A DNA stretch of 64,000 nucleotides from NCBI GenBank assembly GCA_012295275.1, contig CM022667.1, positions 4,154,001-4,218,000 of the forward strand, in the 5' to 3' direction. A program made the position numbers and the translations under genes. Shown here in pieces: positions 7,073 to 57,531 of the stretch. The notes under the pieces are model-generated. The model made no database searches and had not been told where the DNA came from. It saw only the letters and a list, made by a program, of their open reading frames with translations. Source of the stretch: Chrysomallon squamiferum. Taxonomy: Eukaryota > Animalia > Mollusca. Each line of letters begins with the position of its first letter. Position 1 is the first letter of the stretch.

Positions 7073-10014
7073 TATACATACACAAACAAACATCATTTTT
7101 AAAAATGATGATGTTGATAATTTCATTTATGATGGTGATGTTGATGCCAAATTATTTTACTTTTGATGAATGTTATATGTTTGATTCTGTACTTGTTTTT
7201 GCTGTTGTTGCAGTAAACTTTCTGTTCCAACTTTTATTTTATTTTATTATGTAGAGATTATACATATATATATATATATATATATATTGTGTGTGTGTGT
7301 GTGTGTGTTTGTATATTTTATATATATATATATATATATAATAAAATAAAATCAGTTTTATACATTTATATATTTATTTTAATTACAGTTACCATTAGTG
7401 TTTGTTTTTTAAAAGATTATTTTATAACATTATAAATTAATTTCATTTTCTTCATTTCTCTTTTTTATTTCTTCTCTTTCTCTCTCTCTCACAATATTTT
7501 TTTGTTTTTTTTATTATAGTACTGTTTACATGAGGCTGTTCAAAATAAAAATTACAAGATGGCCGCCGCTATTGCATTTGTTGTTGATCGAGCAGCATAC
7601 AGATTCGGTTCTTCAAGGTCGTTGTTAAGGGTCATTGACCTTATTTTGAATGAAGCCCCTCACACCCCTGTTGCCCCTCAGGTTGTCCTGCGCAAGGCTA
7701 GGATAATGAAGGACACTGGCGATTTGCATGGAGCAGTGAAGGTTCTAGATGCAGTAGTTTCTAAAGGTGAATATTCGATGTTTTTAGAAATACATTTCTC
7801 ACAAACTTCAGTTTATGTCCAATCCTTTCAAACAGCCTACTCTGTTGTTGTTCTTTTTTTTTTTTTTTAACTTGTGAAATGAAAGTGTTTCACAACCTTG
7901 TCTAAAACTTGAATTTTATGTTTAGTACCGACAGTTGTTATTTCAGGTGCATGCACTAGTTATTCGAAATCGTAAACATAATTTTTTTTTATTTTTTATC
8001 TTGATGGCAGTGGTGTTGTTGAGAAAAACACAACATAATATTTTAGAAGCAGATGTTTGCAGTGCAATCACAAACACACAAGTTATTATTTTAGATGTTT
8101 GTAGTACAATACAAACACACAAGTTATTATTTTAGATGTCTGTTGTGCAATCACAGACACACAAGTTATTATTTTAGATTTCTGTATGCAATCAGAAACA
8201 CACAAGTTATTATTTTAGATGTTTGTAGTGCAATCATGAACATAAATTATTATTTTTTTTATCTTGATGGCAGTGGTGTTGTTGAGAAAAACACAACATA
8301 ATATTTTAGAAGCAGATGTTTGCAGTGCAGTCACAAACACACAAGTTATTATTTTAGATGTTTGTAGTACAATACAAGCACACAAGTTATTATTTTAGAT
8401 GTTTGTAGTACAATACAAGCACACAAGTTATTATTTTAGATGTTTGTAGTACAATACAAACACACAAGTTATTATTTTAGATGTTTGTAGTACAATACAA
8501 GGACACAAGTTATTATTTTAGATGTTTGTAGTACAATACAAGCACAAAAGTTATTATTATAGATGTTTGTTGTGCAATCACAAACACACAAGTTATTATT
8601 TTAGATGTTTGTAGTGCAATCACAAACACACAAGTTATTATTTTAGATGTTTGTTGTGCAATCACAAACACACAAGTTATTATTTTAGATGTTTGTAGTG
8701 CAATCACAAACACACAAGTTATTATTTCAGAGAGACAGTGGGATTATAAGACTGAAGACCAGTACACCAATGTCAAGGCTGTTTGTGTTCAGGTCAAAGG
8801 TCAGATACTGCATAATCTTGGTGAGTAAATATGTCATTACAAAGTTTCATTCATTCTCATTCATTTTTTTTATTTCTTATCATTACTTTTTTTTTTTTTC
8901 TATTATTTATTATTACTATCTTTCATTATATTTTATTCTTTCTTTCTTTTATTCTCATGCTTTCATTAATTTTCATGCTTTCATGAATTTTCATTCCGTT
9001 TTACATTTATGCTCAGTCTTTACTTTTATTTATTCTGGTCTTTTTTTTTTGTTTTTTTTGTATCATTCTCTTGTGTGTTCATCACCAAACCTACAGGTCT
9101 GTGGAAGGAAGCCATCGAACCTCTTGTCCAGTCCATCGAATCATTCAAGTATCTCCATGACAACAAAGGAACCTCTTCCTCTCTTGGCCTTCTCTGTTGT
9201 TGTTTCAAAAAACTATCACAGCATGAATTCAAAGAAGTAAAACAGAAATTTCCACATCTGTTTCAGTCACAACATCCCTGCTACGAAGCCTACAGACAAG
9301 GGACAGAGGCAGTCAGTTACATTCGAGATCTGGGACAAACACTGTACCTCTGTAAACATCAGGTAACCGAGACCCTGTTTTACTGTATTTATTTTTTATT
9401 TTTTTGTAATTATTATTATTATTATTTTTTTTATCTCTAGTAATACTGTTTTGTTTACAAAGATTATTAATGGTGTTGTAAACATCAGACTGTGTGAAAC
9501 CTTTTTTAATATTATTTTAGAGAGGTTTTTGGTGTTTTTTTTTGTAAGACACTGCCCATCAAGATTTAATTTGATTGTTTTTATTACTTTTGTACAAGTG
9601 TAACTTTTCGTGTTGCTGCTTCTGTTACTGTTTGTTGTGGATTTTGATCTTATTTAATGTTGTTCACATGTTTCATTTTTCATATTGTTATTGACATTAT
9701 GTTATTCTTGTTATTGTTATTGTTCGTGTTATTGCATTTTCGTTATTTTGATAGTGAAATTATTTATTATTTTTGTTCGATTTTGTTTCTTATTTATTTA
9801 TTTATTTATTTAATTATTTGCTTACTTCTGTTTACTAGTTGTTTCATTAGTTATTATTTAAATATCATTTTTAAAATATTTAGATTTATTTATTTATTTG
9901 TTTATTTATAAAAATAAATTATTTTAAATTATTTGATATATTTATTGAATTTTTTCATTGCACATATAAACACACACACACTCACACACACATACATCTA
10001 CACACACACATACA

Positions 10015-13000: not shown

Positions 13001-13960
13001 TTGATTCAACAAAATTTAATAACCAATTCTTTATCACTTAATACAGTAGATGAGATTATGTAATTTAATTCTCTGTAACCGATTATTCTTTTTATTTAAT
13101 ACTGTAGAAAAGTCTGTAATTTAGTAAGGTTCTGAGATTCTTTATAATTTAATAAGATTCTGTATATTTTGTAACTTAATGAAATTTTTTAACATATTAC
13201 ACACACTTTAATATTAAATGTAAATTTTTTTTTTTTTTTAATTTATTTTATTAACTTGTAATTCAGTTTAGTTAATAATTTAGCTGCACAAGCTTCTTAT
13301 ATTCAATAGTAGTTATTAGTACTACTACTAACAACATCCATTATTACTACTACTACTATTACTTTTTATTATTACTATAATTACTGCTACCATTATTACT
13401 TACCACTACCACTACCACTGCTCCTACTCCTACTGCTACCACTACCACTACTACTCCTACTACTCCTACTGCTACTGCTACTACTACCACTACCACTACC
13501 ACCACTACTACTACTGCTACTGCTACTGCTACTACAGATTTTATTAATTATTATTATCTTAAAGGTCCAGTATTTGCCTGCGGCCCATTTACAAATCCTA
13601 ACACCAGATGGTGAGATTAAAGACTGGGTCAATGTTGAGCCTTTTCTCAGTGGCTCATTTGAGAAGCTCACGAACAACCTTGACCAGTTCAGTATCAAAG
13701 GGAGAGAACTTGCTACAGCTCTCTCACACTTTTCTTACTGCGAGTCTAAAGGAGAGTTGATGATTGTTGATCTGCAAGGCTGGCTCCCCTCGGACGATAG
13801 TGGAATCATCTACTTGACTGATCCCCTGTTCAACACACAGGGCCCAGAGCGGTATGGTCCATATGATCAGCAGGAAAAGGGGATGGCAGCTTTCTGGTCA
13901 CAAGTGCATCCAGAATGCAATGACATATGCAGACATCTTCATTTGTGTCGGCCAGAATAA
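5940..13960 (+). CDS. ALPK1: Alpha-protein kinase 1 orthologue (N-terminal ADP-heptose-sensing helical domain, Ser/Glu-rich linker, C-terminal alpha-kinase), about 959 aa
   Basis: Exons 5940-6000, 6512-6729, 7520-7766, 8731-8820, 9097-9362, 10109-11417, 11765-11924, 12206-12338 and 13565-13960 total 2880 nt in frame. NTD motifs WPFLP, AAAIAFVVDR, TPVAPQVVLRKAR, VCVQVKGQILHNLGLW and DNKGTSSSLG match vertebrate ALPK1. Kinase motifs include LHQDEPLGKYVCK, VEPFLSGSFEKLTNN, HFSY, VDLQGW, IYLTDP and HPECNDIC. Confidence 0.95.
6746..7085. repeat. Compound (CA)n/(TA)n micro/minisatellite just after an ALPK1 donor
   Basis: Repeated blocks of cacacacatgtatatatatataaaatacacacac. These are the source of the spurious VCVC/HTHT ORFs. 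Confidence 0.9.
7975..8730. repeat. 41-42-bp minisatellite (with a higher-order duplication) ending exactly at an ALPK1 splice acceptor
   Basis: Unit gatgtttgtagtgcaatcacaaacacacaagttattatttta, over a dozen copies. The last copy reads ...ttattatttcag|AGAGACAG, which is the real acceptor. Confidence 0.92.
12726..12920. mobile_element. hAT/Charlie-like non-autonomous element fragment in an ALPK1 intron
   Basis: Begins CAGTGGTTCTCAAACTTTTT, a typical hAT-Charlie terminus. No clear opposite TIR. Confidence 0.45.
13315..13537. repeat. (CTA/CTG/CCA)n trinucleotide microsatellite
   Basis: Direct reading of the sequence. It lies just before the last ALPK1 exon. Confidence 0.9.
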
Positions 13961-18478: not shown

Positions 18479-27905
<9,427 letters not shown>

Positions 27906-33058: not shown

Positions 33059-33485
33059 TTATACGCCATCAAGGCTGATGTTCATGGGAATGAGGTAATC
33101 TAGCATTGCGTATTTCCACGTCCACAGCCTGGCGATTCGTTCAAACTCTGGGAAGTTTCTCTTGTAAAGTTTTCCGATGCAAGGCTCCATGCACACCGCA
33201 CAGTATGGATCAGTGAGCAGCGACTGGATGCTGACCAGAACTTTTGATATCGTCAACGCAAGACTCCAGTTGTGATGTATGGAGTCCAGCCCTACGTCAC
33301 CATGGCGACTGATGTTAGGGTGAAATATTTTTGTGATGAATCGGACTTTGGGTGGTCGCATGGGATAGCTAGAATGCAAAGAATCCATACAAACATACAG
33401 GCAGAATGAGAACAATTTCAAATTATATACACAGATATGCACATTGAATAATCCACACAATATTACATCTGATGTGCTTTGCTCT

Positions 33486-37732: not shown

Positions 37733-39582
37733 ATGACAGACGTACAAGTTCCTCGGTGCGGAGTTGGACCAGGTCCCGTAACTCTTCCAGCAATTGCTTG
37801 GTATGAATTTATTCTAAACGACAAATTATTGGAGGAACATCTTAATAAAGATAATCCAGGTGAGGCAAAATATAATTAAGCATGTACTGCAGATCTGTAA
37901 TTTTGATTAATACAATTATTTTGAGTTGTTAAGGACATTGGTACTGAATGATCACCAGACTGAGTGGCAGAGCCAGAGGTACACTAACAAGTAACATTAC
38001 CAGTGACTACAGTAATACTAATACTAGTAATAATAATACTAATAGTAATAATACTATACATTTTTATAATAATATAAATTATAATACTAGACTACTTGTA
38101 CTATTCGTACCGTATTTGTCGTGTTCACTATCCTGATAGTTCCCCTACCATGCTAAAGAGGGATTTGTTTGATGTAGTTATGTGGAAAAGTGTGGCTTAA
38201 TTAGTTAATATCGTGGTGGACAATTTACAAACCATTTTTTATTTCTTAAATTATATTAAAAGAAAATTAATAGATAATCTTGAATTTTACTCATTTTACT
38301 CAGTATTTTGCTCCAATTTTTATTTATTCAAAAAAAAAAAAAAAATAATAAATCTTATTATTTATTTATATATTAAAAATATTATTATTTTTATATATAT
38401 TTTTTCTGAAGATATAAAAAAGACATATAAAATTGTTTAACTTTAAGCTTTATTTAAATTAACTAATCAACCAATTGTTTCTTTCTTTTCCATACTATCA
38501 AAACTGCACTTTGTTTGCCTGAGATCATTGAAAATGTACCTTTTTATGAGAAAGCCTAAAAAAAATTTTAAAACATTTATCAAACGTAATAATCCATGTA
38601 AAAAACCACAGAGGTTTCTGCTTGCTTACTTTCATTTAAAAACTTGGATTTGCTGATGGCCATAACAAATTTTGACAAGTGAGTATATAATTTTAGATAA
38701 CTTTTTTTTACATCATAGAAAATACAGAGAAAATATCTGCTAGAAAGTGATATAGCTCAACCGCAAACAAATTTATTATTACTGAGTTGATGAGTGGTTT
38801 TGTTTGATTATAGGTGCTTCCATGTTTTGATGATGTCATGGAAATGGCACCTGGTTATTGAATGAGAGGTGACATCACAATTAAGGGGGAAAGAAAAAAA
38901 AAAAGAGATGAAAAAAATGAATTGTCACTTATCATTTTGTATCCATACTCTGCATGGATCATTGTTGGATATTGCTTTGTCCGGAAAATGAATATCAGAC
39001 AGTTGAATAAAAAAAAAAAAGCCTGTTTTGAGGATTTTAATTTAATTTTGAATCTATTTATATATATATTCTATTTTAAATTGTCTTACAGATCCAAGTC
39101 CAGTGGATTTAATAATCCAGTTTCTGCAGCAGGCAGATGTAGAATTGACTAATGCTGCTCTCAACAAAGAACAACAACAACAACAAAGGGCAGTAACGCC
39201 ACAGCCTCTAATCTCTGACACCAAGATTGATGCTAATGGTAAAAAATCTTTAATTTTAACCACAAAATTATAAACATTATAAAATAGGTAAATATTACAT
39301 TGAAAATTAACTGTAAAAAAAAAAAAAAAAAAAAAAAATTACTTTTATGGTTTAAAATTTAATTTATAATAGAATAAACCAAAGATAATTCTATTGTATA
39401 TAAATATAAATTATAAATTGGAGGTTATCAGTTTAATATTATAACAAATAATAAAACACTTTACTCAGATTTGTAAATTAATTTTTGACTCTATTAGATT
39501 GTTAAATGATGTTTGTACAGTTTGGCAAGTGTCAGACTATATATTAAAAAGTATGAATGTTCCTGATTTTTTTATTAACAGT

Positions 39583-39614
<32 letters not shown>

Positions 39615-42600
39615 TAAGGAAAGATTTTAGAAGAAAATAAGAAGGTGAAAGCTCTTAGACTGTTGGCTATGAAGGTTGCTGCTCATTTAAAATGGAATAT
39701 GAATCTGTTAGAAAAAGGGTGAGTTTTTATACTTTAACTGAAATTAATAGAATCAAGAAATTAATTTTAATCTTAGTTATTTTTTTGTGGTGTACAAAAA
39801 AACCTCAAAAGAATATTTAATTATGTCCCCAGTTAAGATTTAACTGAGTTTTACAGATTAGACAAGAATTTATTTTCCTTTCAAGTAATATTTTATTTTT
39901 AGTTATGCACAGAGTAATATCTTACCATGGTTATGCAATAAAATAATTAAATGTTTTGTGCTGATATACTGATACAGTCATATTTTGTTTCAGTTATGTT
40001 TGTTTATTTTAGTTACATACTGAATAGTATTTCCTTTCAGTTATATGTAAAGTAATATCTCAGTTAAATATAGTATTATTTTTCTTACATTTAGTGTGAT
40101 ATTTTAAATAAAACTTTAATGTTTTTGTTTTGTCTTGAGTAATATTTTAACTATATTTAAGGGTAATATTTTTATTACATCTGGAATAATATTTTTAGTT
40201 TGCAGTAATGTTATATTTTTGTTACATCTGGAGTAATATTCTTATTTTGATGTAATATACTATTTTTGTTACATCTGGAGTATTATTTTTATTTTGATGT
40301 AATATAATATTTTGGAGTAATATTTGCTGTGTTTGATTAGAAATTTTCAGAGCAGTCGACAAAATGGCATACACAGACACATTGTGTAAGATCCTTAAGA
40401 ACACAGTGAAATTCTCACAAAACCTTTTCTTGTTTATTACTCTTGTTTTATGTGACAAACAATAACAACAAAAACAAACAAACAAATAAACAAACAATAA
40501 CAACAAACAAACAAACAAAAGAAACCACTGTTGTATATAAAAGGTTTTGGGTTTTTTCCTTATGTATGCACAGGTTTATTTTTTAAAAGTTCAAAACCAC
40601 CACCACCATTGTTTTAAGAAAGAAAAAAGAATAACCAAAGCAGTAATAGAACTATATTACTAACTAATTACATGTTTTTGAATGTTTCATTTCAGTTAAT
40701 TAATATGTTTCTTTTTTTCACTTACATTTTAAGTATAATAAATTTGTACTGGATTTTATCAAATTTACCAGATGCACAAAATCTAATAACCCTGCATGAT
40801 TTCTCAACAATTTGTAAATTCATGCCTAAAATACATAATGTATAAAACATTCTAAACATGCATGATTGAGATATTAAATACAAACTTTTTTTCATGACTG
40901 AATTAATAAAACAATTTATGACTTATAAGATATTAGATACAAACTTTATTTCATGACTGAGATATTAAATACAAACATATTTTATAACTAAATTACTAAA
41001 ACAAACTTCATTTATGACTTATAAGATATTAGATACAAACTTTATTTCATGACTGAGATATTAAATACAAACATATTTTATAACTAAATTACTAAAACAA
41101 ACTTCATTTATGACTTATAAGATATTAGATACAAACTTTATTTCATGACTGAGGCATTTAATAAAATTTTTATTTCATGACTGATGTTAAATACAAACTT
41201 TATTTCATAATTCTTTATTTAAAAACAAACTTTATTTCATGAGTGTTTATTTAAATATTTGTTGATTCTGAAATTTTTTAACAACTATTAAATACAAACT
41301 TTATTACATGTGCTGGGCATTTTAAATACAAAACTTAATTTGAATATAAACTTTATTTTGTGAGTGAGATCAAATGCAAACTTTATTTGTAATATTAACA
41401 TATTATTATTCATTAAATTCAAACTTTATTTCATCACAGGTATATAAAAACACAAACTGTGTCTTAAACTATTTCATGAATGAGGTTAAATACAAACTTT
41501 ATTAAACATCTGTGAGTCACAAACTTTATTTCATGACTAAAATATTAAAAAACAAACTTTATTTCATGACTGTGATGTATGAACTACATACTTTTATTTA
41601 TAATTTGTTAATAAATGAGTATGAAATGTTAAACACTAGCTACTTCATGAATGAGGTGTTACATAAACACTTTATTACATGTCTGTGAGATATAAATTTT
41701 TATTTCATGACTAAAATATTAAACTACAAACTTTATTTCATGACTGTGATATATTAATTACATACTATAATTTATTAATAAATGAGTATGAGGTGTTAAA
41801 TGCCAGCTATTTCATGAATGAGGTGTCACATAAACTCTTTATTACATGTCTTTGTTTCACTGAAACATCAGGGTGCCTCTTCCCGTGTCTCAGACGCTGT
41901 TAGTCGAATTACTCCGCATGTCAATGGGAGACTCCATTGTTCGAGCCAAGGACCCTGAGCTTGATATATCCACACTGTCAGACAAAGCCGCATTTGCCGT
42001 TCATCTTTATCACAGATGGTGAGTTTTAGTCTCCTGTATGTAACTCATAATTTCCCATTCTGACCAGTGCCTCCTATCTGATCAGTCAAAGTTACCGATG
42101 TTCACTCCTGTTTATGGGATGGCGATTTTAAAAGACGTCTTGTTGCTAGAAAAAAGTTGCTTGTAAAGTGTCAGCTGCAACTGCAGGTTTCTTCTCTTGT
42201 ATTAATGTCATTATTAGAAATAAATTATAAACCAGTAACAGATAATATTTAAAGAAACTTGTCATGATTTTAAATATTTATTCATTCTTTAAAAATGTGT
42301 TTGCGTTTATATGATTCAAATTAACAAATAAAAATAATCTTTAATGAAATCTCAATATATTAAAAAGTGAAAAAAAGCAAGAAAAAAACATGTATAATTT
42401 GTACATTACTAGTTTTGTCTATTTTATTTTGTTATTTTCAAGATGTAAAATATCTCTGTATTTTATGTAATGTTCAGCATTAATTGAAATACTTCTGTAA
42501 TAGCTAACACTCCAGAAACAAATAAAACTACAACTTAGAAGTACAACACATGCTTATACTTAATATTTTAAATTATTTCAATAATTAATTTTTCTTTACA

Positions 42601-44271
42601 TTTCAGATTATTGATCTTGTTAATAATATTCATTGGTTTAAAGTACATCTCTGGTTAGATTTACAGATGAAAATATATCTTAATATAAATAACATTATGT
42701 TGTTTTATATGTTACTGGTGCACAGTCATTTCTGATAATAAAGTAGGACAATAACATAATTAATATTTAAGTACAGCTATTTATATATATACACACACAT
42801 AATATATATGAATGAAAGTAATAGTTCCTCTCAGGTTTGATTTCCCATATAATTGATTTGTTTTCCCATGTGATTAATGTAATTTCCCACATGACTGAAG
42901 TAATTTCCCATTTCAGGTGTTTACATTCCGTTGTCAAGGACAGTTTTCCAAGTCGACCACCAAGACAAGTTTTCTTTCCAATGTAAGTGTTTTTTTAAAT
43001 TAATTATTAATAATAAACATCATTAATACTTAGTTCTTTCACTCTCTGTCTTAATGTTTTGTTTTATGCTGACAAATTAGATATTTATTCAGATTACAGA
43101 GATGTGGAAAAAAAAAAAAGAAAAAAAAAACAATTTTTCAAAGTGGTTACTTTAGTTTTGGCACACTTTTTAGTTTACATGATTTTATTTTATTTTAATT
43201 TAATTTTTTTTTACAGTTTTTATTTTTTATTTTGTTATTTTTTTTAAATTTAATTATTTATTTTTTTAAATTTAATTATTTATTATTTTAAATTTAATTA
43301 TTTATTATTTTTAATTTAATTTATTATTTTAATTTAATTTAATATTTTAAATTTAATTTATCATTATTTTAAAATTAATTTATAACAATTTTGTATTTCT
43401 TTTTAATTATTGTTATTTTTTTTTTGTTACAAATACTGATGACCAACCTTTGTTAACTATAAGTAAAAGTAAAAAAGCACACAAACTGTTCATTTCAGAC
43501 CAGGTCAGGTTGACCCTGCAATGGCTATGGTTGCAGCTACAGAAGCTATTTGCAATGGGGTAAAGTATATTTTAAAAAATATTGTAGAAAACACAATAAA
43601 AATATTTGTGTTTTTTTGTCTCCACGTTTTCCCTCCTCTCATTTAGTCATCAGTTTCAGCTTGTCCTCTTTCCCTTGCTTATTGCCTCTATATATAACTT
43701 GTTTTCTTCATTTTCTCAATATATCACTCCTTATACTTCCTCCTCTTCTGTTTCACACACACATGCACACATACACACAGACATACATACAGTGATAAAC
43801 ATACATACCCACACACACACCAAACACATACCAATAATCACAGACAATATATATACACACAAAATACACACACCTACACACACCTGCGTAACAGACTACA
43901 TGTACACACAAAGGCATAGATATATATACACATACATGCACTGATATACACACATACATACACACCCACCCCCCAAATATACAAACACACAAATACATGC
44001 AAGCCCATTCATTTCTATCATTATAATTTTGTTGTTGTTGTTGTTTCAGTTAAGAGATGAACTGTCCGCATCCATCACAATATTAAAACATTTCATTGAC
44101 ACGAGGAGTCAGCTACACATGCCCACATCCCAGTGTTTTTCTGTTCCCAGTGAAAACTCAGCCATTCAGTATAACTGGGAGAACTCAGTCAGTGTGCCTA
44201 GAGATGAAGTCATTGCTCAAGTAATGTTGTTGTTATTGATGAATATATTCACAGAGAGAGAGAGAGAGAGA

Positions 44272-44348
<77 letters not shown>

Positions 44349-47300
44349 TGACATCAAAAGTGATATATGTTGCCGTAATTATTAAAGAAAAAGATTGACA
44401 GATTATTGATTTAAAAAAACCAAACAATTTTCTAATATTTCTGAACTGTGTGATTATTTTCTTAATTTTATTTGCATTAATATTCATTATGCACATTTTT
44501 TCTCTTAACAGATAACGTATGATCTTGGTTGTATTTTCTTTCACAAATCTGATTACAAACAAGCATATGAATTCTTCAAGAGATCAAAAGAAGTCCTTGA
44601 TCAGGTATCGATTACATTTTTGTCATCAAATGAATATAATACATCAGTAATTATTATAAATACAATGTGAGAAAAATGTTTTTGGTAGACACTCTGGTGT
44701 ACTGCTGTTTAACATATACAAAACTGTAATGTTTTAGCTGGACAAACCAGTGTACTGCTGTTTAACAAATACAAAACTGTTTTAGTTGGACAAACCGGTG
44801 TACTGCTGTTTAACATATACTGTAATGTTTTAGTTGGACAAACCGGTATACTGCTGTTTAACATATACTGTAATGTTTTAGTTGGACAAACCGGTGTACT
44901 GCTGTTTAACATATACAAAACAGTTTTAGTTGGACAAACCGGTGTACTGCTGTTTAACATATACTGTAATGTTTTTGTTTTAACATACAAAACTGACAAA
45001 CCAGTACTGCTGTTTAACATATACTGTAATGTTTTAGTTGGACAAACTGTACTGCTGTTTAACATATACTGTAAACTGTTTTTAGTTGGACAAACCGTAA
45101 TGTTTTTAACATATACTGTAATGTTTTAGTTGGACAAACCGGTGTACTGCTGTTTAACATATACTGAAACTGTTTTAGTTGGACAAACCGGTGTACTGCT
45201 GTTTAACAAACTGTAATGTTTTAGCTGGACAAACCAGTGTACTGCTGTTTAACAAATACAAAACTGTTTTAGTTGGACAAACCGGTGTACTGCTGTTTTA
45301 GTTGGACAAACCGGTGTTTAAAACATATACTGTGTTTAATGTTTTTTAGTTGGACAAACCGGTACTGCTGTTTAACATATACTGTAATGTACTGCTGTTT
45401 AACATATACTGTAATGTTTTAGTTGGACAAACCAGTGTACTGCTGTTTAACATATACAAAACTGTTTTAGTTGGACAAACCGTACTGTGTTTTACATGCA
45501 AACCGGTGTTTTTTAACATTTAACATATACTGTAATGTTTTAGTTGGACAAACCGGTGTACTGCTGTTTAACATATACTGTAATGTTTTAGTTAGACAAA
45601 CCGGTGTACTGCTGTTTAACATATACAAAACTGTTTTAGTTGGACAAACCGGTGTACTGCTGTTTAACATATACTGTAATGTTTTAGTTGGACAAACCGT
45701 TTAACATATACAAAACTGTTTTAGTTGGACAAACCGCTGTTTAACATATACTGTAATGTTTTAGTTGGACAAACCGGTGTACTTTTTACAAAACTGTTTT
45801 AGTTGGACAAACCGGTGTACTGCTGTTTAACATATACTGTAATGTTTTAGTTGGACAAACCGGTGTACTGCTGTTTAACATATACTGTAATGTTTTAGTT
45901 GGACAAACTGGTGTACTTCTGTTTAACATATACAAAACTGTTTTAGTTGGACAAACCGGTGTACTGCTGTTTAACATATACAAAAATGTTTTTTTTGTTA
46001 GACAAACCGTGTGTTTTTGTTGGACTGCTGTTTAACATATACTGTAATGTTTTAGTTGGACAAACCGGTGTACTGCTGTTTAATATATACAAAACTGTTT
46101 TAGTTAGACAAACCTGTGTACTGCTGTTTAACATATACTGTAATGTTTTAGTTGGAGAAATCGGTGTACTGCTGTTTAACATATACTGTAATGTTTTTGT
46201 TGGACAAACCGGTGTACTTCTGTTTAACATATACTGTAATGTTTTAGTTGGACAAACCGGTGTACTGCTGTTTAACATATACTGTACTGTTTTAGTTGGA
46301 CAAACCGGTGTACTGCTGTTTAACATATACTGTAATGTTTTAGTTGGACAAACCGGTGTACTGCTGTTTAACATATACATAACTGTTTTAGTTGGACAAA
46401 CCGGTGTACTGCTGTTTAACATATACAAAACTGTTTTAGTTGGACAAACCGGTGTACTGCTGTTTAACATATACAAAACAGTTTTAGTTGGACAAACCGG
46501 TGTACTGCTGTTTAACATATACAAAACTGTTTTAGTTGGACAAACCGGTGTACTGCTGTTTAACATATACTGTAATGTTTTAGTTGGACAAACCGGTGTA
46601 CTGCTGTTTAACATATACTGTACTGTTTTAGTTGGACAAACCGGTGTACTGCTGTGTGAATGCGGCCAGGCTGAAGGGGTACATTGTGAGCTGCACAAGT
46701 CTGTTGGGAGTTGTACAGCAAGCGACACTCAGTCTGTACGAACGTGCGGAAATGTCAAGAAGAAATCATTTTCAAGTGAGTTTTGGTGACGTTAGATGTT
46801 TAGATTTTAGTGAAATTTCTGCATCATGTTAACAGTGGATCTGAGATAAGATTCGAAAATGGTGTAAATTTGGCTTCTAAAATGTTTTATTTTGATAAAT
46901 TGTTAATAACTTTTTATTCATTGACTTGTACGTGTGTGTATGTGTGTCTGTGTGTGTGTGTGTTTATGTTATAAATATTTTTATTTTGATAAATTGTTGA
47001 TAACAGTTAATTTATTGATTTGTATGTGTTTGTGTGTGTGTGTGTGTGTGTATGTTTGTGTGTATTTATGTTATAAATATTTTTATTTGGATAAATTGTT
47101 AATAACGGTTAATTCATTGACTGGACATATGTCTTTGTATATATTTATGTTATTAATATTTATTTTGTTTTTATTTAGGGTCTTGTAGACGTTTTTCTGG
47201 AGGATAATCTCAAACATGAACTGAGCATGGTGTACAGACTGAATGTAGAAAATGAACTGTCACACAGTGCCAGAAGGTATCAACTGTCAAAAAGTGTCAG

Positions 47301-47881
47301 AAGGTTTATTTACCTGTTTTTAAAATAAACAGAAATCAATTGATTATTTTTCCATTTGATCTAAAATTAATATAAATGGGATCCCAACCAACTCTAAATA
47401 TTAGCCCAATTGGATCAGTTTTGTAATTTTTATTTTGACCTAAAATTTAACCACCAACCTTAGAACCCTTATCAGTTGAGGCCAATGTTTTTGTTGAAAA
47501 GGCAACATGACAAGAATTCCAAATATGTATGTTCAGTTTATATATATATTATTCCTTTGATTATGTTGTTATGATTAATATACAAATATTACTGGGTAAA
47601 AAAGAAAAATGTCTTTTTCTTTTTTTTTTTCCTAGTTTATCTCGAGTGTACACTGAGGTTGTGATCTGTAATGTGGTTCGAGGTGTGCTGGAGGGAAAGG
47701 CTCTTGTTTCTCCCATTCTAGACATACTCGAGAAAGCTGACTCGGATGTTGTGTTATTTATTGTCAGGGTAAGTCTTTCTTTTTTCACACAAAGACTCAA
47801 ACACAGATACACACGTGTGCAAGTGTGTGCTGTGTACATTTATTTATTTAATTTATTGTTCATTAATAACTGACTTGGTTT

Positions 47882-47917
<36 letters not shown>

Positions 47918-48089
47918 TTAACTGTTTATTAACTTACTGACTGACTTGTTTGTTTTCAGGTTATATCTGATGTCATGAAAGGTGCGTCTTTTAATCAGAG
48001 GCCAAATCTGAAGTGTTTCATTTGGTGAGTAAATGTTTAACATGTTTAAAAAATATAGTTATTAATAGTATGATTACCACTACTACTGA

Positions 48090-48127
<38 letters not shown>

Positions 48128-48659
48128 TTACTACTACTACTACTACTACTACTATTATTATTATTATCATCATCACTACTTGCTACTACTACTGCTGCTA
48201 CTACTAATATTACTGCTACTAATATTACTGCTACTATTATTACTATTACTATTATTACTACTACTACTACTACTACTAGTACTAGTATTATTTATTTTAT
48301 TTATTTATTTATTTATTTTTTTTCTTATTTATTTATTTATTTATTTCTTAATTAAAGGCACCTGGTGGAACTGTCACCTACAGAAAGTGGTTTAACGAAT
48401 GCTGTACTGAAAAGTGATCTTGCTGCTCACTTTGACCAGGATGAGAGAAGTGAGATGGTTTTGGGGGACGAAGGAGATGAAATGTACCTGGAGGATTTTG
48501 AAATGGACGATACTACCTGTACCACAATGACCTCAATGTCATCTCAAAGAGGTAAGTGGGTTTTTTCCCATTCTAACCACAGATTTCCATTTTGTTAATC
48601 ACAGTCTGTGCTTATAACTGCCAATATTATTATTATTATTGTTATTGTTATTGTTATTG

Positions 48660-48697
<38 letters not shown>

Positions 48698-49664
48698 AGT
48701 TTTAAAAAAAGAGAAGGAAAAGAAATTTTTGAAATGTCTATGTAAATAATATTTCTTACTACTCCTTTATTTATTTGAAGGGAAAAAGCAGATACTCAAA
48801 TATATTTGTTTTCAAAATAATCTTCCTTAACAATAACTTCACCTGTGATGTTACAACAGTTCTCTTTGTTGCTCTGGTTTCAGAAATGACATACAACATC
48901 AACGACATTGAGGGACGTCTGTTAACTGTGTACGATCCTGATCTGATTAAAGATCTCGTGTTGGAACTGTGTACAAAGCAGAACTGGAAACTGGCTCAGT
49001 TTGTTAACTTGAATGACAAGGTGTGTTCATTTTCACTCACAATCACATCCATACACACATACATACACATGTATTGAAGTATCATGAGCAAAAATAAAAT
49101 ATAAATATGAAGGTTTCCATAGGTATATATATATACATACATCTATGGGTGAAAATTATTGTGATGAAACAAAATAAATGTAGAAATACAGTAGTATTTG
49201 CAGATAGATTCATACAGGTAGAGGTGAAATTTATAGTGTCAAAAATATAATAGTAATTCACTGGTATCTGTATGTTTGTAAAAGTAAAAAAAAAAGAAGA
49301 AAAAATACATCAGTATCCTTAACGTAAAATCATTTTTTTTCTGTTTATATAACTTGAAAACTCTGTAGCATGAAAGTTTAATAACCCAAATAAAAATGAG
49401 TTAGTTCCCTGACAGAGTAATAAAAAGCTTTTATGGTTGGTATTGAAATTAATTTTTTTTTAATATTTTAAATATATTTAAAATATAATTTGTTTTGTTG
49501 TATTTTTCCCAGTGGAAAGTCCCTCGTGAGATTCGACACATAATTGATGGGATGTCAAACGCAGGAAAACAGCAGTGTTACATCTACGTTTTGCTTGGCA
49601 AAGCAAGACACTGCATGGATCTGAGAGTGAGTAACAGAATTATTTCATGTTTAAAAAATGTCTT

Positions 49665-49755
<91 letters not shown>

Positions 49756-50457
49756 CTTACACACCACTTTACTTAAAGTGTATATATAAATAAATACTGT
49801 TTGTTATTGTTATTGTTATTGTTATTGTTATTGTTGTTATTGTTATTATTATTATTATTACTATTATTATTATTATAATACCTATTTTTACACATGATTT
49901 TTTGGGGTACATTTTGTACATTTTTATTTTTATTTTTTATTTATTATAACAAATTTTTCTACTTCTCAATATTTTTAGTTTTAAATTTATTTATGTTTTT
50001 ACTGGTTTTGCGTACACATTATTTTCAGATATTTGAGCGTGCTCGGCAGCTGCTAGGAGTTGTAGACAACACGCTAGAGAATTTTTCCTACGTTCTGTCA
50101 AAGCATGTGCGTTGGCAGTCTCTGCTTTGCGATCTTCTGCAGTATTACCTGAACCAGTCATTCGGCGAGGGGTCGATGCTGCAAGATCTGGTGAAGAAAA
50201 CCAAAACCTGCCTCACTACAATCAGACTAGGGCAAGGTAATTTATCTGTTACAGAGATTTAATTTTTAATTTTTAATTTTTAATTTTATTTTTATTTTTA
50301 TTTTATTTTATTTTATTTATTTATTTATTTTTTTATTTATTATTATTTTTTTTATTTTATATTTATTTATTTCTTTGGTGATTTTGCAGGAGTTTGTTTT
50401 TTTCTTTGTGTTTATTTTATTCTAGTTTGCTGATTTTAGTTTTGTAATGTATTTTTG

Positions 50458-50494
<37 letters not shown>

Positions 50495-50835
50495 TAAAAT
50501 TTTGTTATTTATTTAATTATATATTTAATTTAGTTATTTTAGTTTTATTTTATTTATTTGAATATTTTTTAAATACACATTTATATATTTATTTTTTTAA
50601 ATTTATTTTTGCTTTATTTATTTATTTATGCTTATTACTTTAATTCTATTTTTATTAAATTCAATTTATTTACATATATTTATTTATATACTATTTATAT
50701 TTTTAAGTTTTATTTATTTAGTTATTTTACTGTTTGTTTATTTATTTACTTATTTATATTTTTATATTTTATTTACTTATTCACTTGTTTATAAATTTAT
50801 TTACTTATTTACTTATTTATTTATATTTTTATATT

Positions 50836-50870
<35 letters not shown>

Positions 50871-53800
50871 TATATTTGTTTGTTTGTTTACTCAGACATA
50901 CAGCCAAGTGATGAAGTGTTAGAACAGTGTACTGCATTTCTACTGAACATTCAGGACTGGGACTATCTCACTAATCTAGAAAACACAGCTAATGGCTACA
51001 TAGAGGTTTGTTCTGACTTGTTTCTCTTCAAAGTAAGAAACAAAACAAAAACAAGTTAATTCTACTAAAAATTCAGGACTAGGACTATCTCACTAATCTA
51101 GAAAACACAGCTAACAGCTACATAGAGTTTTGTTCTAACTGGTTTCTCTTCAAAGTAATGTTGTTGTATTTCCCATTCCTAAGTGGGCTCTAGTTTGTAA
51201 CCAGACATTACAGATTCTAGTTGTGTATTCATCTATATTTTTGTGTCAGCTCTTTTTCTCTCTGTATAAAAGCATTCAAATTAAAATTTATATTATTCCC
51301 AGTTTTGATTAAAACAAATTATTTTTGGTTACAGGTCAGTCGACTGATGGCTTGTGCTTGCCGGGAACTCCCAAACTCAAAAACTGTTCGCAAATTATCC
51401 CGAGATATGTGGGATGCAGGTTATTGCCATTTATCATAAAAAATTAACTGTCTGTAAAGTTTTAATTATTATTTTTTTTATTACCTGGTAACAACAGAAA
51501 ACAGGTTTGTCTTATTATTAGAACATTCCACTCAGACCTGACAGGTCACAGGATCAAATGGTTGGTGGGTTCTGTGTTGTATTTTCCACTTCAGTGTGGA
51601 TTCAAGTTGTTATTTAGTTGTATACATGACTAAGTATGAAAGATCAATCCTTGTGTCCAAACCCTGTAAGCTCTTTATCATTCCAACCATAGCTCCAATT
51701 TATGATTGATTTATGTTTTTATTTTTTTCTGTTGATTCAGTTAATTATTTTGCTGTTTAGTTATTTATGTTTGTTTAGTCGCATTTCTCTTGTTCAGTAT
51801 TTCATTTTTAATGAATTTATTGTTTGTTTTATTTTTAATTACTTTATTTATATTTTGTTTAGTTTATTAAAATTTCTTTAATTAAACTATTTAAATGATA
51901 TGTGTATTTCTGTGTGTGTGTGTGTATTGTATGCTTATTTATGTATTTACTTACTTGTTTATGTATTTCACTTTTAACAAATGTGTGTGTGTGTGTATTG
52001 TTTGCTTATTTATGTATTTACTTGTTTATGTATTTCACTTTTAAATGATTTATTTTTCAGTTGTGAAGATATTTCAGAGCAAGCCCAGCACTCGCGGTAC
52101 ATCCACTGGACGAGACAGTGCAATACATCGAGACCAGCAGAACGGAATTCTCTCTCGAGACTCCTTTCTCAGCTACCTGCATCGAATCAAGGTTTACACA
52201 AAATTTCTGTTATTAAAATCAAATTTATAAGTACATATGTGTGAGTAGGTAGGTTTTTAAAATCAATTTCTTGAGATTGCATAGACGTAATGATAAAACA
52301 GGATCGTATGAAAGTAAGGTTGTTTTTTGTTTTTGTTTTCATGTAGTTAGATATCAGATAGTGTAGAAATATTTTTTGAATTACTGTTAATTTTTAACAG
52401 ATAATAATAAATAAAATATATTACTTTTTATTTTTAAATTGCTTTTTTGGACATGTATATTAATTTAAATCTTTTATTTTATTTTATTTTTTTATTATAT
52501 TTTTTATTTTAATTTTTTTTATTTATTTATATATTTGGTTTTTTTAATTGGATTATTATCCAAACAAAAGAAATATGTTTATTTATTTAAATATTTAATT
52601 AATTCTTCTATTTGTTTACTTTATTAATGATATTTAAGAGTTTGTAGTTAAATGAAATAAATTTGAAATCAGGTATGTATTCAGGTGCATACACAGACAT
52701 ACCTTTATTTATTTTTATAATTGTTTAATTTTTTTTTTTTTTAATTTACTGGTTGTTTTCTTTTGTTTTTTTTGTAGGAGCCAACCATACTATCTTTGAT
52801 GATTTCTCTTTTAACCAAGTTGTTCACAATGCTGAAGGTATAGAAATTATTTGTTTTCTTCTTTCTTGTTTATTATTTAATTTACATATCTGATTTTCTT
52901 TCCATTTTTGAAATTTTATTATTTTGTTAATATGTCTGTAAATGTTCAGGTATGTTCATGTGTCTGACACTATGTTTATAACTAGTTCCTTCCATGCAGT
53001 TACAATCTGTACCTGTCCTTATTTACTAACACAATAACAACAACAACAACAACATCAAATAGATTAAAATAATAGAAAATAAATAAATAAAGAAAGAAAG
53101 AAAGAAAGAAAGAAAGAACAAACAAACCAACAAATGAACGAATGAATGAATTAATTAAAAAAGAAATACAGAAAGAAACAAAGAAAGAAAGAATAAGGAA
53201 AGAAAGAATGAAATAAAAGAAATAAGACAAATAAATAACATGTTACTGTCTGGCTGCACTATGCTACTTCACAAACACAACAGAAAATGAAGGCTAATAT
53301 TTCATAAACATAAATACTTTGTAAATGTCAAAACACACACTGGCTTAACAATACAATACAGTAGATTAAAAATAAAGCTCTTTGAATGCAAAAAGTTGAA
53401 TCACATCCAATTAATTCTGTTCTGAGTTAAGTTCAGTATGAATGTTAGCCAGAAATAGGGGCCTATCTGTAACCATACATTACTTTTGTGTACGTTTGTG
53501 TTTATGTGTGACATGGGTGAGTGTTGCTACATGAAGTGTGAAAATATGTTAAACAGCTGATATTTGGATCAGGAATGCTAAACAGAGATGTCAGCACAGT
53601 TTTTAAAAAGTAAATTTTTGTAAATATTTTGTTTTCCCTTCACAGGATGAAATCACCAGTGAGATATCCACTGATTACCTTGGACTGTGGCCAACTGTTG
53701 TGAACAAGTAATTTCTTATTTTTTCACTTCTGTTCTTGTTTCTCTCTCTCTCTTTTTTTTCTTCTTTCTTTCTTGCTTAAACTTAAAAAAATATATTATG

Positions 53801-55198
53801 AATAAAGAAATTTGATAAATTAATATTTTCAGAAAATGTACTAAAAAAACAAATATATAAATAAAAATTAAAAAATGCAAATTCTGGTTTTACTGAGTCA
53901 AATGAATTTTTTGCTCTCTATCTGTGTCTCTCTACATGTCTACATATTTTATGTTTCAGTATTAATTCTATAAGTGAGCAGTGTGTGTGTACTTGTCTAC
54001 ATGTCTGCATACTTTATGTTTCAGTATTAATTCTATAAGTGAGCAGTGTGTGTATGTGTGCTTGTCTACATGTCTGCATACTTTATGTTTCAGTATTAAT
54101 TCTATAAGTGAGCAGTGTGTGTATGTGTGCTTGTCTACATGTCTGCATACTTTATGTTTCAGTATTAATTCTATAAGTGAGCAGTGTGTGTATGTGTGCT
54201 TGTCTACATGTCTGCATACTTTATGTTTCAGTATTAATTCTATAAGTAAGCAGTGTGTGTGTATATGTGTGCTTGTCTACATGTCTACATACTTTATGTT
54301 TCAGTATTAATTCTATAAGTGTGAGCAGTGTGGCTGTATGTGTGCTTGTCTACATGTCTGCATATTTTATGTTTCAGTATTAATTCTATAAGTGTGAGCA
54401 GTGTGGAAGATGCTCTCACAGATCTGATGGATCACGCACTCACAGTGTGTCCTACACACACATCCTGGCTGCGCACACAGGCTGACATCTACTTTGGTAA
54501 ATACTTTTTGTCTCAACTGTTCAGTCTTTCACATTCTAACTAGAGCTCCATGACTGTAAAACATTTGATTTTCTTTTTTTTGTAAATGATATATATTTTT
54601 TATATATGTAAAACAGGAATGTATATGATGTTGTCCACATTTAAAAAGACTGATAAAAATTATTAATATTTCTGTATTTAAAATTTTGATGTTTCTTCTT
54701 TAACCAGTCTGGTTTTGATTTTTTCAATGTATTTATGTGGAGAAAAACTATAGTTAATATTGTCTGCATTCAAAGTCTGTCTTTTCTTCCATTTAAATAC
54801 TATATCTTTTAGCCAAAATGATTTTGATATTTACAGAGTATTTCTGTTTATCAAAGATAATTATTTATTTGTTTCTATTAAATATTTTAATTCCAGCCAA
54901 CTGTCAGTATTCAGCAGCTATGAAGTATTACCTGGAAGCTGGAGTTGTCTGTACTGATTTCTTCACAAGACCATTTAACAAAACAGTATTCGATGACCAG
55001 GTAAACAATACCAACTTCATTCTCCCCGTTTCATAATGATAACAGATTTTTTTTAAATGGAGATTTTAAACCCATTTACAAAACAGTATTTGATGAGCAG
55101 GTAAAAAAACTGTTGTGTTTATTTTCCCTGTTTATTAATGATGTTAAATTGTGTTTTTTTAAATGGAGATTAAAAGACAAAGATTAATTTGAGTAAAA

Positions 55199-55233
<35 letters not shown>

Positions 55234-55871
55234 TGGTTTAAAAGACAGTTTCTCTGAATATAAAAAAAAGAGAAAAAAGAAAGTGACACAAAAAGATAAA
55301 TATTAGTTTCAGAATAATCTAAAAAAAAAAAAAAAAAATAATCATAATAAAAAAAAAAAGAAATGCCAGTAAGAATAATACATTAATCTCTGAATATTCA
55401 AAGTAAATTTCTTTAAGTTCATAAACATAATCCAGAAATATTTGAAAATTGAATTTTTTAATTACTGGCATTACAAGAAACTTGTTTATTTTTAGCATGT
55501 TACAAATTCTGCTGAAAGCTTCAAAAGCCTAATTTGGCACTTTTATGCATTAACAACATATCTGTATAATTAGGAAAAAGTTGTTGGTAATTGTTACAGA
55601 TTTTCTGGAATGTTTTTCTTACAAGCAAATCCAGGGGATTTTGAATAAAAAATAATTAATTTTTGTGATTTCTATTGTAATATTTGTATGTATACATATA
55701 TATTTAAATCTATTTTTATTCAGGTCTATAGGAAAATGATAAAATGTTGTTCCTACCTGCAGTGTCACACACAGGTAAAATAAAAAAAATAAAAAAAAAA
55801 AATCAAGCCCTCATTTGTTTTCTTGTAAAAAAAGATATTATTATTTTTCTTTTTCTCATTTTATTTATTTA

Positions 55872-55913
<42 letters not shown>

Positions 55914-57531
55914 GAATACACCAATTGCAAAGGTATTATTTTGAAAAAAAAAAAAAAAAAATATTAGTTTTTAATTTTATAAATATAATTATTATCATTA
56001 TATTATATTACTTTTACAGTTCTTTGCAATCTTGTTCTTGTAAAAATCATTGCTGCTACTGTTGCTATTATTATTATTGTTATATCATTATTATTAATAA
56101 TTTTATTATTATTATTACTGTTATTACCATCATCATCATCATCATTTTATTATCATCATATTCACCTTCATATTCCTTTACTCCACCTGCCACTTGCAGT
56201 TTTACTAACTGTTGAAATTGTTACCATCGCTTACTGTTCTTGTTTTCTTGTCTGTCACCAGGTGGCACTGCTCTGCCAGTTTCTGGATGAAGTTGACTAT
56301 TCAACGGCGTTCAAAGCTCTGCAAGAACGCAACACCTACGATGCTATGGACGCCTACTACAGCTGCATCTGGGATGTCAGCATGCTGGAATATCTGATTC
56401 GTATCCTAATACTTTACTAACTTTTCATCTTCCAACCAGAGCTCATTATCTTTTCATCTCTGCACAATATAATTCTTTCTTCTTCAATTTTTTTTTTGTT
56501 TTTGTTTTTTTTTGTTGTTTTTTTTGAATTCAAAGTAAAGATGTCTTGTCTTAATATTTACAATCAGATAATTTTTACAATCAGAATAGTTTTTTAAAAT
56601 GTACTTTTTTTATTATTATTATTTTGTTCCAGTTAAAAGTTTTATATTTCATTTTTACTATTTTTATATATTTATTGTTATGATTATTTAAATTCTTTTT
56701 AAAAATTGATATTTATGTTTGTGAGATCTGTTAAGTAAACATACGATATCTCAAACTTTTTTGGTTACAACCAGAACGATTTATATTTTTATTATTATTC
56801 ATTTATTTTTTTTATTTTTTTATTTTTTTATATATATATTTTGGCTTATACTGTGGATATTGAAAAATATTATTTGATTAATATGTAAAAAAAATAAAAT
56901 AAAAAAAATAATAATTTTATAAAACTACAAGATAATCAAAAGTAAATTATTCCTCAACAAAAACTAGATCTTCATACAAAACGAGGGGAATCTGAAAAAC
57001 GGCAGTCAGCAGTGAGTTTATCATGTTTACTATTAATTAGAAAATGTACATTAACATGAAATTTAAATTTTTCTGCTCATTTGTTTCTCTCTTTCTCTAT
57101 ATGTATACATGTGTATGTATGTCTGTATGTATATAGAAGTAATATTATATTAATTATTACTATTATAATAATAAGAAACAATAGTCAAATTACAAGAGAA
57201 TTTATATAATTAATAACAATGATGATAATAAATACTCAATGTGTACCTGTGTGTTATTGTGCATGTGTCTACACACACACACACAGATACACATTATTGA
57301 GTAGTATTATAATTATTGTTGTCGTTATTATGTAAATTATTACACACACACACATGACTTTTCCAGTTATTTACCTGTTTATATATTTATTTAATTTTAC
57401 TTATTTTGACAGCTGCGAGCTCTCAGCCAAGTGGACATCAACAGCAACAACCCTGAAGAGGTGCAGCGTCGTGCCGTGTGTCTGAGGAAAAACAAATTTC
57501 TACTGCTCTGGCCAAGCAGTATTTGACATGA
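37733..57531 (+). CDS. INTS8: Integrator complex subunit 8 (27 coding exons; apparent 1-nt frameshift in the last exon)
   Basis: Exons: 37733-37859, 39092-39238, 39619-39718, 41872-42018, 42917-42982, 43499-43559, 44050-44220, 44512-44604, 46632-46775, 47179-47276, 47636-47768, 47960-48024, 48358-48551, 48884-49020, 49513-49626, 50029-50236, 50896-51005, 51335-51419, 52061-52191, 52778-52837, 53646-53707, 54378-54496, 54897-55000, 55724-55774, 56262-56400, 56968-57011, 57413-57531. Motifs matching INTS8 are WYEFIL (human WFEFLL, PP2A-binding), DPSPVDLIIQFL, LLAMKVAAHLKW, ITYDLG, RLKGY, VALLCQFL, DAMDAYY.CIWDV.MLEYL, KRGE and NSNNPEEV. Confidence 0.96.
40860..41860. repeat. Degenerate about 31-bp minisatellite (aaatacaaactttatttcatgactgagatatt) running up to an INTS8 acceptor
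   Basis: A recurrent caaactttatttcatgact core with higher-order duplications. It ends just before the acceptor at 41871. Confidence 0.8.
44676..46654 (+). repeat. 48-bp minisatellite (roughly 40 copies) made of an INTS8 intron 3' end + acceptor + first 23 exon bases
   Basis: Unit tttaacatatactgtaatgttttag|ttggacaaaccggtgtactgctg. The last copy is the true acceptor (46631/46632) and continues into the exon LDKPVYCCVNAARLKGY. Confidence 0.95.
49668..49752. repeat. (GA)n microsatellite
   Basis: Direct reading of the sequence. Confidence 0.95.
53925..54402 (+). repeat. 69-73-bp minisatellite (7 copies) containing an INTS8 acceptor and the exon start
   Basis: tttatgtttcag|tattaattctataagt occurs with its AG ending at 53959, 54024, 54093, 54162, 54231, 54304 and 54377. 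The last is the in-frame acceptor. Confidence 0.95.
56401..56967 (+). other. U12-type (minor spliceosome) GT-AG intron in INTS8
   Basis: 5' splice site GTATCCT, branch-site-like TTCCTCAAC at 56950-56958 about 10 nt before the AG, and no polypyrimidine tract. The flanking exons join in frame (EYLI-H-LHTKRGE). Confidence 0.8.

What the first reader, a model, noticed from the sequence alone, without database searches (positions are those of the whole stretch)
44676..46654. About 40 tandem copies of a complete splice acceptor in INTS8, each ending in an in-frame stop
Seen: the 48-bp unit is 25 nt of intron end (branch-like tttaac ... ttttag) plus the first 23 nt of the exon, and it fills almost the entire 2-kb intron. 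The exonic half encodes LDKPVYC, which by manual alignment sits in conserved INTS8 sequence before RLKGY, so the junction was amplified rather than a repeat being exonised. The unit is a multiple of 3, and reading from an intact upstream acceptor gives TTG GAC AAA CCG GTG TAC TGC TGT TTA ACA TAT ACT GTA ATG TTT TAG, so the next acceptor's TAG is a stop. Only the last of the near-identical sites is productive. Inference: either the spliceosome has an unusually strict way to pick the exon-proximal site, or the array is a copy-number-tunable NMD sink or stepwise-splicing substrate in an essential gene. I know of no named system matching this.
Basis: partly seen in the sequence, partly recalled or inferred. 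Interest (0 to 1): 0.8.

Follow-up and report, generated by a model that had tools for sequence, protein, structure and literature searches.

The report
Snail INTS8 splice-acceptor "mirage" minisatellite
A 48-base piece spanning an intron end and the start of the next exon of a snail's INTS8 gene is repeated about 40 times inside that intron, and the one spliced transcript seen uses only the last copy, so it is likely a harmless example of a repeat type already described in lancelets and humans.

Summary
The array is real. DNA from four runs in three studies joins its 5' edge to INTS8, and three runs join its 3' edge. It fills intron 8 of a 27-exon, intact INTS8 gene of a gastropod-like animal (83% identical to Gigantopelta aegis INTS8). 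Of 38 upstream copies, 36 keep AG and all 36 are non-productive, but only 23 stop at the next TAG. The single RNA contig joins the donor to the last acceptor. The claim that no named system matches is wrong: this is an amphioxus-type "mirage" (PMC3087553) and the acceptor-side mirror of the human F7 VNTR (PMC1557585). Premature stops are the default outcome (79% of simulated junction repeats), no ratchet GT forms, and junction copies in this gene are not enriched (3 of 52 versus 5.5%). This scan has logged the same kind in at least 9 genomes and once elsewhere in this one. Whether upstream sites leak into NMD is untested. Interest 0.2.

The parts
44512..44604 (+). INTS8 exon 8, upstream of the array; donor GT begins at 44605 (7.4 bits in a small within-gene matrix)
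   Evidence: the RNA contig's loose end equals 44573-44602
44605..44675 (+). Non-repetitive 5' part of intron 8 (71 nt)
   Evidence: bridged to the first unit by DNA contigs of X1, X2, X4, X5
44676..46655 (+). 48-bp acceptor-junction minisatellite, about 40-43 units; 38 recognisable upstream exon-start copies, 36 with AG; two main unit types; most diverged unit at the 5' edge; indel-rich centre
   Evidence: unit present at high depth in DNA of three studies
46607..46631 (+). Authentic branch-like motif, short pyrimidine tract and TAG acceptor; weak (3.5 bits against -0.5 to 11.4 for the gene's other acceptors)
   Evidence: used in the RNA contig
46632..46775 (+). INTS8 exon 9 (144 nt, phase 0), followed by a strong donor (9.6 bits)
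47179..47276 (+). INTS8 exon 10, joined to exon 9 in the RNA contig
37733..57530 (+). Whole INTS8 gene model: 27 exons, 1007 aa, no internal stop, 839 of 1011 columns identical to P0001
   Evidence: P0001 matches Pfam TPR_INTS8 at 1e-183
53931..54405 (+). Second acceptor-junction array in the same gene: 69 bp x 6.8, six upstream acceptor copies, all non-productive; true exon 22 starts at 54378
   Evidence: no RNA or DNA reads laid here
50938..51158 (+). Donor-junction duplication at exon 17 (122 bp x 1.8); the second copy has lost the GT

Best explanation
This is a splice-junction minisatellite (a "mirage") grown out of the INTS8 intron 8/exon 9 boundary, and it is likely neutral: the spliced transcript seen uses the last acceptor, probably because of exon definition. 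Shown: the unit's origin in the junction, its place in the intron, an intact reading frame, and one RNA join from the donor to the last acceptor. Inferred: (1) a slippage or unequal-crossover duplication across the junction left the coding exon intact, since extra copies fall in the intron, and then expanded by ordinary minisatellite turnover; (2) every copy is a weak acceptor, and only the last is followed by the full 144-nt exon and is nearest its strong donor, so U1/SR-protein help across the exon would favour it; (3) rare use of other copies would give premature stops and be cleared by NMD, which is a by-product and not a design.
For: Array confirmed in place in DNA of three studies. One unbranched 275-nt RNA contig links exon 8, exon 9 from 46632 and exon 10; the ambiguous stretch is 26 nt, shorter than a 31-letter word, so the join rests on real words. 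All copies are weak; the true one scores higher than 34 of 36 upstream ones and ties or trails the other two. The downstream donor is strong (9.6 bits). Internal exons of the gene are at most 208 nt, so all copies but the nearest would make outsized exons of 240 nt or more. Non-productive upstream sites are the default (9,895 of 12,558 simulated units). Junction self-copies are not enriched (3 of 52 against 99 of 1,788 intronic positions, P = 0.56; three other settings P = 0.38-0.82). Published mirages do not disturb regular splicing (PMC3087553, PMC3902484 passages).
Against: The RNA evidence is one contig at depth 4.8 in one run; the other RNA run laid nothing. Steady-state RNA cannot separate strict choice from NMD clean-up. 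Three intact copies lie 133, 181 and 229 nt from the donor, inside the <250-nt range where intron definition favours the upstream 3' site, and PMC9225289 (section 9) reports only that the upstream preference is reduced, not reversed, under exon definition. The next-to-last acceptor would give a normal-sized 192-nt exon. Folding predicts the true acceptor is less accessible than the upstream ones (unpaired 0.15-0.21 against 0.36-0.69 for most). A TAG acceptor that is itself the in-frame stop arises in only 2.9% of simulated units. The enrichment test covers one gene only, and the acceptor matrix comes from 24 sites.
Confidence: 0.78

Rival explanations
1. Hidden leak without a function: intron definition often picks the donor-proximal copies or the next-to-last copy, NMD removes those transcripts, and the array is a tolerated cost rather than silent.
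For: Intact copies at 133, 181 and 229 nt from the donor. In human 6-16 and CBS the nearest pseudo-sites are used (PMC1557585 introduction). The three copies within 200 nt of the donor score lowest (-1.2, 0.2, -2.4 against 3.6), which could reflect selection against them.
Against: No branch in the RNA contig, though at low depth. The edge copies of minisatellites diverge anyway (PMC3087553 passage). Low scores also occur in the second unit type throughout the array.
Confidence: 0.11
2. Regulated or copy-number-tunable NMD sink: the array is kept because it diverts a variable share of INTS8 pre-mRNA into decay, so array length or splicing-factor levels set Integrator dosage.
For: 36 of 38 copies keep AG. 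The specific case of the acceptor TAG being the in-frame stop is uncommon by chance (2.9%). Unit-to-unique depth ratios differ between samples (35, 22, 28).
Against: Retention of AG is expected of a young homogenised array. A second array in the same gene gives stops by other routes. No enrichment at junctions. No upstream join seen. The depth ratios are rough.
Confidence: 0.06
3. Stepwise (recursive) splicing or micro-exon use: the intron is removed in steps through the copies, or 12-nt in-frame micro-exons are spliced in through a donor-like site 12 nt into each unit.
For: A donor-like site at unit offset 12 scores 6.3 bits, inside the gene's donor range of 3.1-12.9, and is in frame. This is the layout of the intron-gain model in PMC3087553 Figure 7.
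Against: Splicing to a copy leaves AG followed by TT, so no ratchet donor is regenerated. The RNA contig has no micro-exon. The same site lies in the true exon and is not used in that contig.
Confidence: 0.03
4. The array is an assembly artefact.
For: The centre is indel-rich while the last 12 units are indel-free; the assembly has about 18 exact copies of the core words while read depth suggests 22-35. The detail of the middle is probably wrong.
Against: Short-read DNA of three studies holds the unit at tens of times single-copy depth and links both edges to INTS8.
Confidence: 0.02

Closest known systems
Amphioxus 'mirage' minisatellites (BflGb6, BflGb9, Adh3, troponin C, PGBD5; PMC3087553 and PMC3902484, passages read; the original Adh3 paper was not read)
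   Same: Tandem repeat spanning an intron-exon boundary. BflGb6 is the same type: intron 3' end plus exon 5' part. Unit size is within the reported 10-160 bp; most but not all copies keep the splice signal; regular splicing is seen.
   Different: Gastropod host; about 40 copies against 3-6 in BflGb6; a single-copy housekeeping gene. Length instability is shown in amphioxus and only hinted at here.
Human donor-spanning VNTRs: F7 intron 7 (37 bp x 5-9), 6-16 (25 pseudo-sites), CBS intron 13, LMNB2, PDGF (PMC1557585; abstract, introduction and discussion read)
   Same: One monomer holds the true junction, identical pseudo-sites fill the intron, and the exon-proximal site dominates; the pseudo-sites are functional but out-competed in F7.
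   Different: Those reiterate the 5' splice site downstream; this reiterates branch point plus 3' splice site upstream, where cross-intron proximity works against the true site.
Cross-exon proximity rule of exon definition (PMC9225289; abstract, passages and section 9 read)
   Same: Offers a standard reason why the site nearest across the exon is chosen when flanking introns are long.
   Different: Human data on pairs of sites; for 3' sites the effect is a reduced upstream preference, not a strict rule. Not tested in molluscs.
Recursive splicing ratchet points (recalled, no paper read)
   Same: Extra 3' splice sites inside an intron.
   Different: They need AG directly followed by GT and occur in very long introns; here AG is followed by TT in a 2-kb intron.

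Membership tests
Mirage minisatellite | Tandem duplication whose unit spans an intron-exon boundary of the host gene | tested here: met
Mirage minisatellite | Minisatellite-sized unit (10-160 bp in the published cases) | tested here: met
   48 bp; range from PMC3087553
Mirage minisatellite | Many but not all copies keep the AG/GT signal | tested here: met
   36 of 38 keep AG
Mirage minisatellite | Regular splicing of the mRNA persists | tested here: met
   One RNA contig, depth 4.8, in 1 of 2 RNA runs laid; intact 1007-aa frame. Weak support only.
Mirage minisatellite | Length instability between haplotypes | tested here: inconclusive
   Core-to-unique depth ratio 35 (X1), 22 (X2), 28 (X4); X5 not comparable; low depth and haplotype collapse allow a twofold error
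Mirage minisatellite | Somatic instability (reported for Adh3) | not testable with these tools
   Needs long reads from several tissues of one animal
F7-type junction VNTR | Reiterates the donor (5') splice site | tested here: not met
   The acceptor is reiterated; works like the mirror image
F7-type junction VNTR | Pseudo-sites are functional when the true site is lost | not testable with these tools
   Needs minigenes
Recursive splicing (ratchet point) | 3' splice site directly followed by a 5' splice site (AG then GT); feature recalled | tested here: not met
   AG is followed by TT or CT in the unit copies
Regulated AS-NMD switch (poison exon type) | Measurable, regulated use of the unproductive site, rising when NMD is blocked; feature recalled | not testable with these tools
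   Only assembled contigs of untreated RNA were available

The most novel reading that the evidence does not exclude
The array is a working dosage dial: its donor-proximal copies, 133-229 nt from the donor, compete by intron definition with the true acceptor, send part of INTS8 pre-mRNA to NMD, and array length or unit type sets Integrator level from one snail to the next.
Probability: 0.06. Interest if true: 0.7.

Novelty: new member of a known kind. Interest (0 to 1): 0.2.

Why it matters
As a neutral mirage it matters little: it extends a repeat type described in lancelets and a few human genes to a gastropod, and warns annotators of false exon fragments. Its modest use is as a natural substrate for 3' splice-site choice. 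About 36 near-identical branch-point/AG modules span both the intron-definition range (133-229 nt from the donor) and the exon-definition range (192-288 nt from the next donor), the acceptor-side counterpart of the F7 model. If leak to upstream sites scaled with copy number, it would be a heritable dial on an essential transcription and snRNA-processing complex (role of Integrator recalled), but nothing here shows that.

Tried and rejected
No whole genome is held, so the genome-wide enrichment test could not be run; only the 52 junctions of INTS8 were tested. PDB sequence search with exon 9: 0 hits. Pfam on four single exons gave only sub-threshold TPR hits for exon 8. First exon model had two wrong boundaries and broke frame; corrected. 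RNA run X8 laid 0 contigs, which proves nothing. In one search no DNA contig was laid on the unique exon, but one search showed such contigs exist in X1, X2 and X4. RNA structure as the masking mechanism: rejected, the true acceptor is predicted to be less open. A distinctly stronger true acceptor: only marginal, 3.5 against 2.8 bits for the commonest unit type, and 2 of 36 upstream copies score as high. A dispersed repeat or transposon origin: no copy of the unit elsewhere in the window on either strand, none in metagenome contigs; the rest of the genome was not searchable. Orthologous intron in relatives: one locus returned (L001), which has no tblastn hit to P0001 and is taken as chance. 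X4 and X5 show little depth over one unit type; not used, since contigs can be left out. Literature: searches listed 3 papers each, none, two; none of the listed titles or abstract starts describes a mollusc mirage, but the library lacks most subscription journals. Reed and Maniatis 1986 on duplicated 3' splice sites is recalled only; one search did not list it. No supplements were read.

Full report
Observation. Tandem Repeats Finder reports a 48-bp array of 40.3 copies at 44696-46655 with 79% matches and 8% indels; tiling by alignment gives about 43 units. Searching for the exon-start motif with up to two mismatches finds 38 copies upstream of the true one; 36 follow an AG and 33 also have a branch-like TTTAAC or TTTAAT at the usual distance. 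Reading in the INTS8 frame from each AG copy, 23 of 36 stop at the next unit's TAG, 35 of 36 stop before the true acceptor, and the one at 45947 runs out of frame beyond the exon's donor. So all are non-productive, but the neat 'next TAG' rule holds for about two thirds as assembled.

Host gene. Exon 9 (46632-46775) found 1 protein among 12 candidates, Gigantopelta aegis INTS8-like, P0001, which matches Pfam TPR_INTS8. tblastn of P0001 maps the gene to 37733-57502. A 27-exon model gives 1007 aa with no internal stop and 839 identities in 1011 columns. Introns are 191-2153 nt (median 491) and internal exons 44-208 nt. The organism is therefore likely a gastropod; I infer this from the homologue only. 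The array fills all but 71 nt plus one intron end of a 2027-nt phase-0 intron.

Is it real? Twelve runs were listed. On the 5' edge, contigs of 4 of 4 runs laid (X1, X2, X4, X5; three studies) run from the unique intron through exon 8 into the first unit. Contigs of X1, X2 and X4 join a unit to the unique part of exon 9. The runs fall into different haplotypes in the unique intron, and all carry the array's edge. The 41-nt core has 35, 22 and 28 times the depth of the unique contig in X1, X2 and X4; X5's contigs are cut differently and were not compared. These ratios are rough, with a possible twofold error, but they rule out an artefact. The assembly holds only about 18 exact copies of those words, and its centre has 35 indel events in 26 units against none in the last 12 and 2 in the first 5. 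The middle is probably poorly polished, so the true array may be more regular than assembled.

Which acceptor is used? Of two RNA runs laid, X8 gave nothing and X9 gave one 275-nt contig at depth 4.8. Its loose ends match exon 8 and exon 10, and it carries the whole of exon 9 from the last acceptor. Only 26 nt are ambiguous between copies, fewer than a 31-letter word, so the join is supported directly. There is no micro-exon and no branch. This is thin: contigs drop rare forms, and steady-state RNA cannot tell strict choice from NMD clean-up.

Is the stop codon a design? I simulated 12,558 junction-spanning units at 23 other acceptors of the gene (first exon, both arrays and the U12-like acceptor left out). 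In 79% all ten upstream acceptors are non-productive; among units of 3n length 46% hold an in-frame stop. The particular case where the acceptor TAG is itself the stop occurs in 2.9%, which is uncommon but follows from a phase-0 TAG acceptor and a 3n unit, and only one junction had to have it. The second array in this gene (53931-54405, 69 bp, six upstream acceptors) is also wholly non-productive, by other stops.

Are junctions favoured? Three of 52 INTS8 junctions have a copy of their 22-mer in the adjacent intron (acceptors 46632 and 54378, donor 51005). Random intronic 22-mers do so in 99 of 1,788 trials (P = 0.56), with the three junction arrays excluded from the null; three other settings give P = 0.38-0.82. 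Tandem duplication is simply common in these introns. This is one gene; no genome was available.

Mechanism. With a matrix from 24 other acceptors, the true site scores 3.5 bits, near the low end of the gene's range; the commonest upstream type scores 2.8, the second type about -1.4, and 2 of 36 score as high as the true site. The donor after exon 9 is strong (9.6 bits). A weak acceptor with a strong downstream donor is the setting in which exon definition should dominate (established knowledge), and PMC9225289 reports that sites closest across the exon are favoured when introns are long. Only the last copy has the full exon behind it; all but the next-to-last would make exons longer than any in the gene. 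Against this: section 9 of that paper shows only a reduced upstream preference for 3' sites, three intact copies lie under 250 nt from the upstream donor, and folding predicts the true acceptor to be less open than the copies. The three copies within 200 nt of the donor score low, which fits either selection or ordinary edge decay. Recursive splicing lacks its signal, since AG is followed by TT. An in-frame donor-like site 12 nt into the unit (6.3 bits) is not used in the contig seen.

Comparison with what is known. A paper search found the F7 study: minisatellites whose first monomer spans an exon-intron boundary occur in human F7, 6-16, CBS, LMNB2 and PDGF; only the exon-proximal donor, or it and the next one or two, are used. 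The name 'mirage' came from earlier notes of this scan, and I checked it in the papers. PMC3087553 describes tandem duplications of the intron 3' end plus exon start in amphioxus BflGb6 (6 and 3 units in two haplotypes), many but not all keeping AG/GT, with regular splicing; PMC3902484 lists Adh, troponin C and PGBD5. I read passages of these two, not the whole texts. The scan's notes list 11 such findings in at least 9 genomes, some with hundreds of copies, and one in this genome; those are unchecked and count as leads only. My searches for a mollusc case in print listed none, within a library that lacks most subscription journals.

Verdict. A real, well-formed new member of a known kind, most likely neutral (0.78). 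A hidden non-adaptive leak (0.11) and a tunable NMD sink (0.06) remain open because NMD-blocked RNA was not available. Interest 0.2.

Noticed in passing
window 53931-54405 (+): Second acceptor-junction array in INTS8: seven acceptor copies at 65-73 nt spacing. Only the last two carry the 2 nt that the true exon start has; the copies score as high as a typical acceptor of the gene (6.9-7.5 bits), unlike the weak 48-bp ones.
   Followed up: partly
window 50938-51158 (+): Duplication of the end of exon 17 with its donor; the copy has lost the GT and gained a stop.
   Followed up: partly
window 8051-8731 (+): 41-bp x 16 array ending at a putative acceptor (8731) of a likely alpha-kinase gene; 13 upstream units end in AG but hold little or no exon sequence. 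The exon call rests on an open frame and flanking AG/GT only.
   Followed up: partly
window 56401-56967 (+): INTS8 intron 25 begins GTATCCTA and has TTCCTCAAC shortly before its AG, resembling a U12-type (minor) intron; consensus recalled.
   Followed up: no
window 23868-24179: 63-bp x 5 array with 100% identical copies, in an intron of a minus-strand protein kinase gene that looks like CK2 alpha (name recalled from the translation; Pfam Pkinase); it does not appear to span a junction.
   Followed up: no
window 400-36500: Neighbouring genes by Pfam: HSF DNA-binding domain (- strand, about 2400-2700), alpha-kinase (+, about 13600-13950), protein kinase (-, about 27100), ubiquitin-conjugating enzyme (-, about 33100-33400).
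   Followed up: no
window 44396-44665: The unique intron sequence around exon 8 differs between samples by several substitutions and small indels (X1 and X2 against X4 and X5), and all carry the array's 5' edge.
   Followed up: partly
window 24333-24527 and other long A runs: Very long imperfect A runs (195 bases, 78% matches) suggest unpolished long-read error in low-complexity parts of this assembly.
   Followed up: no
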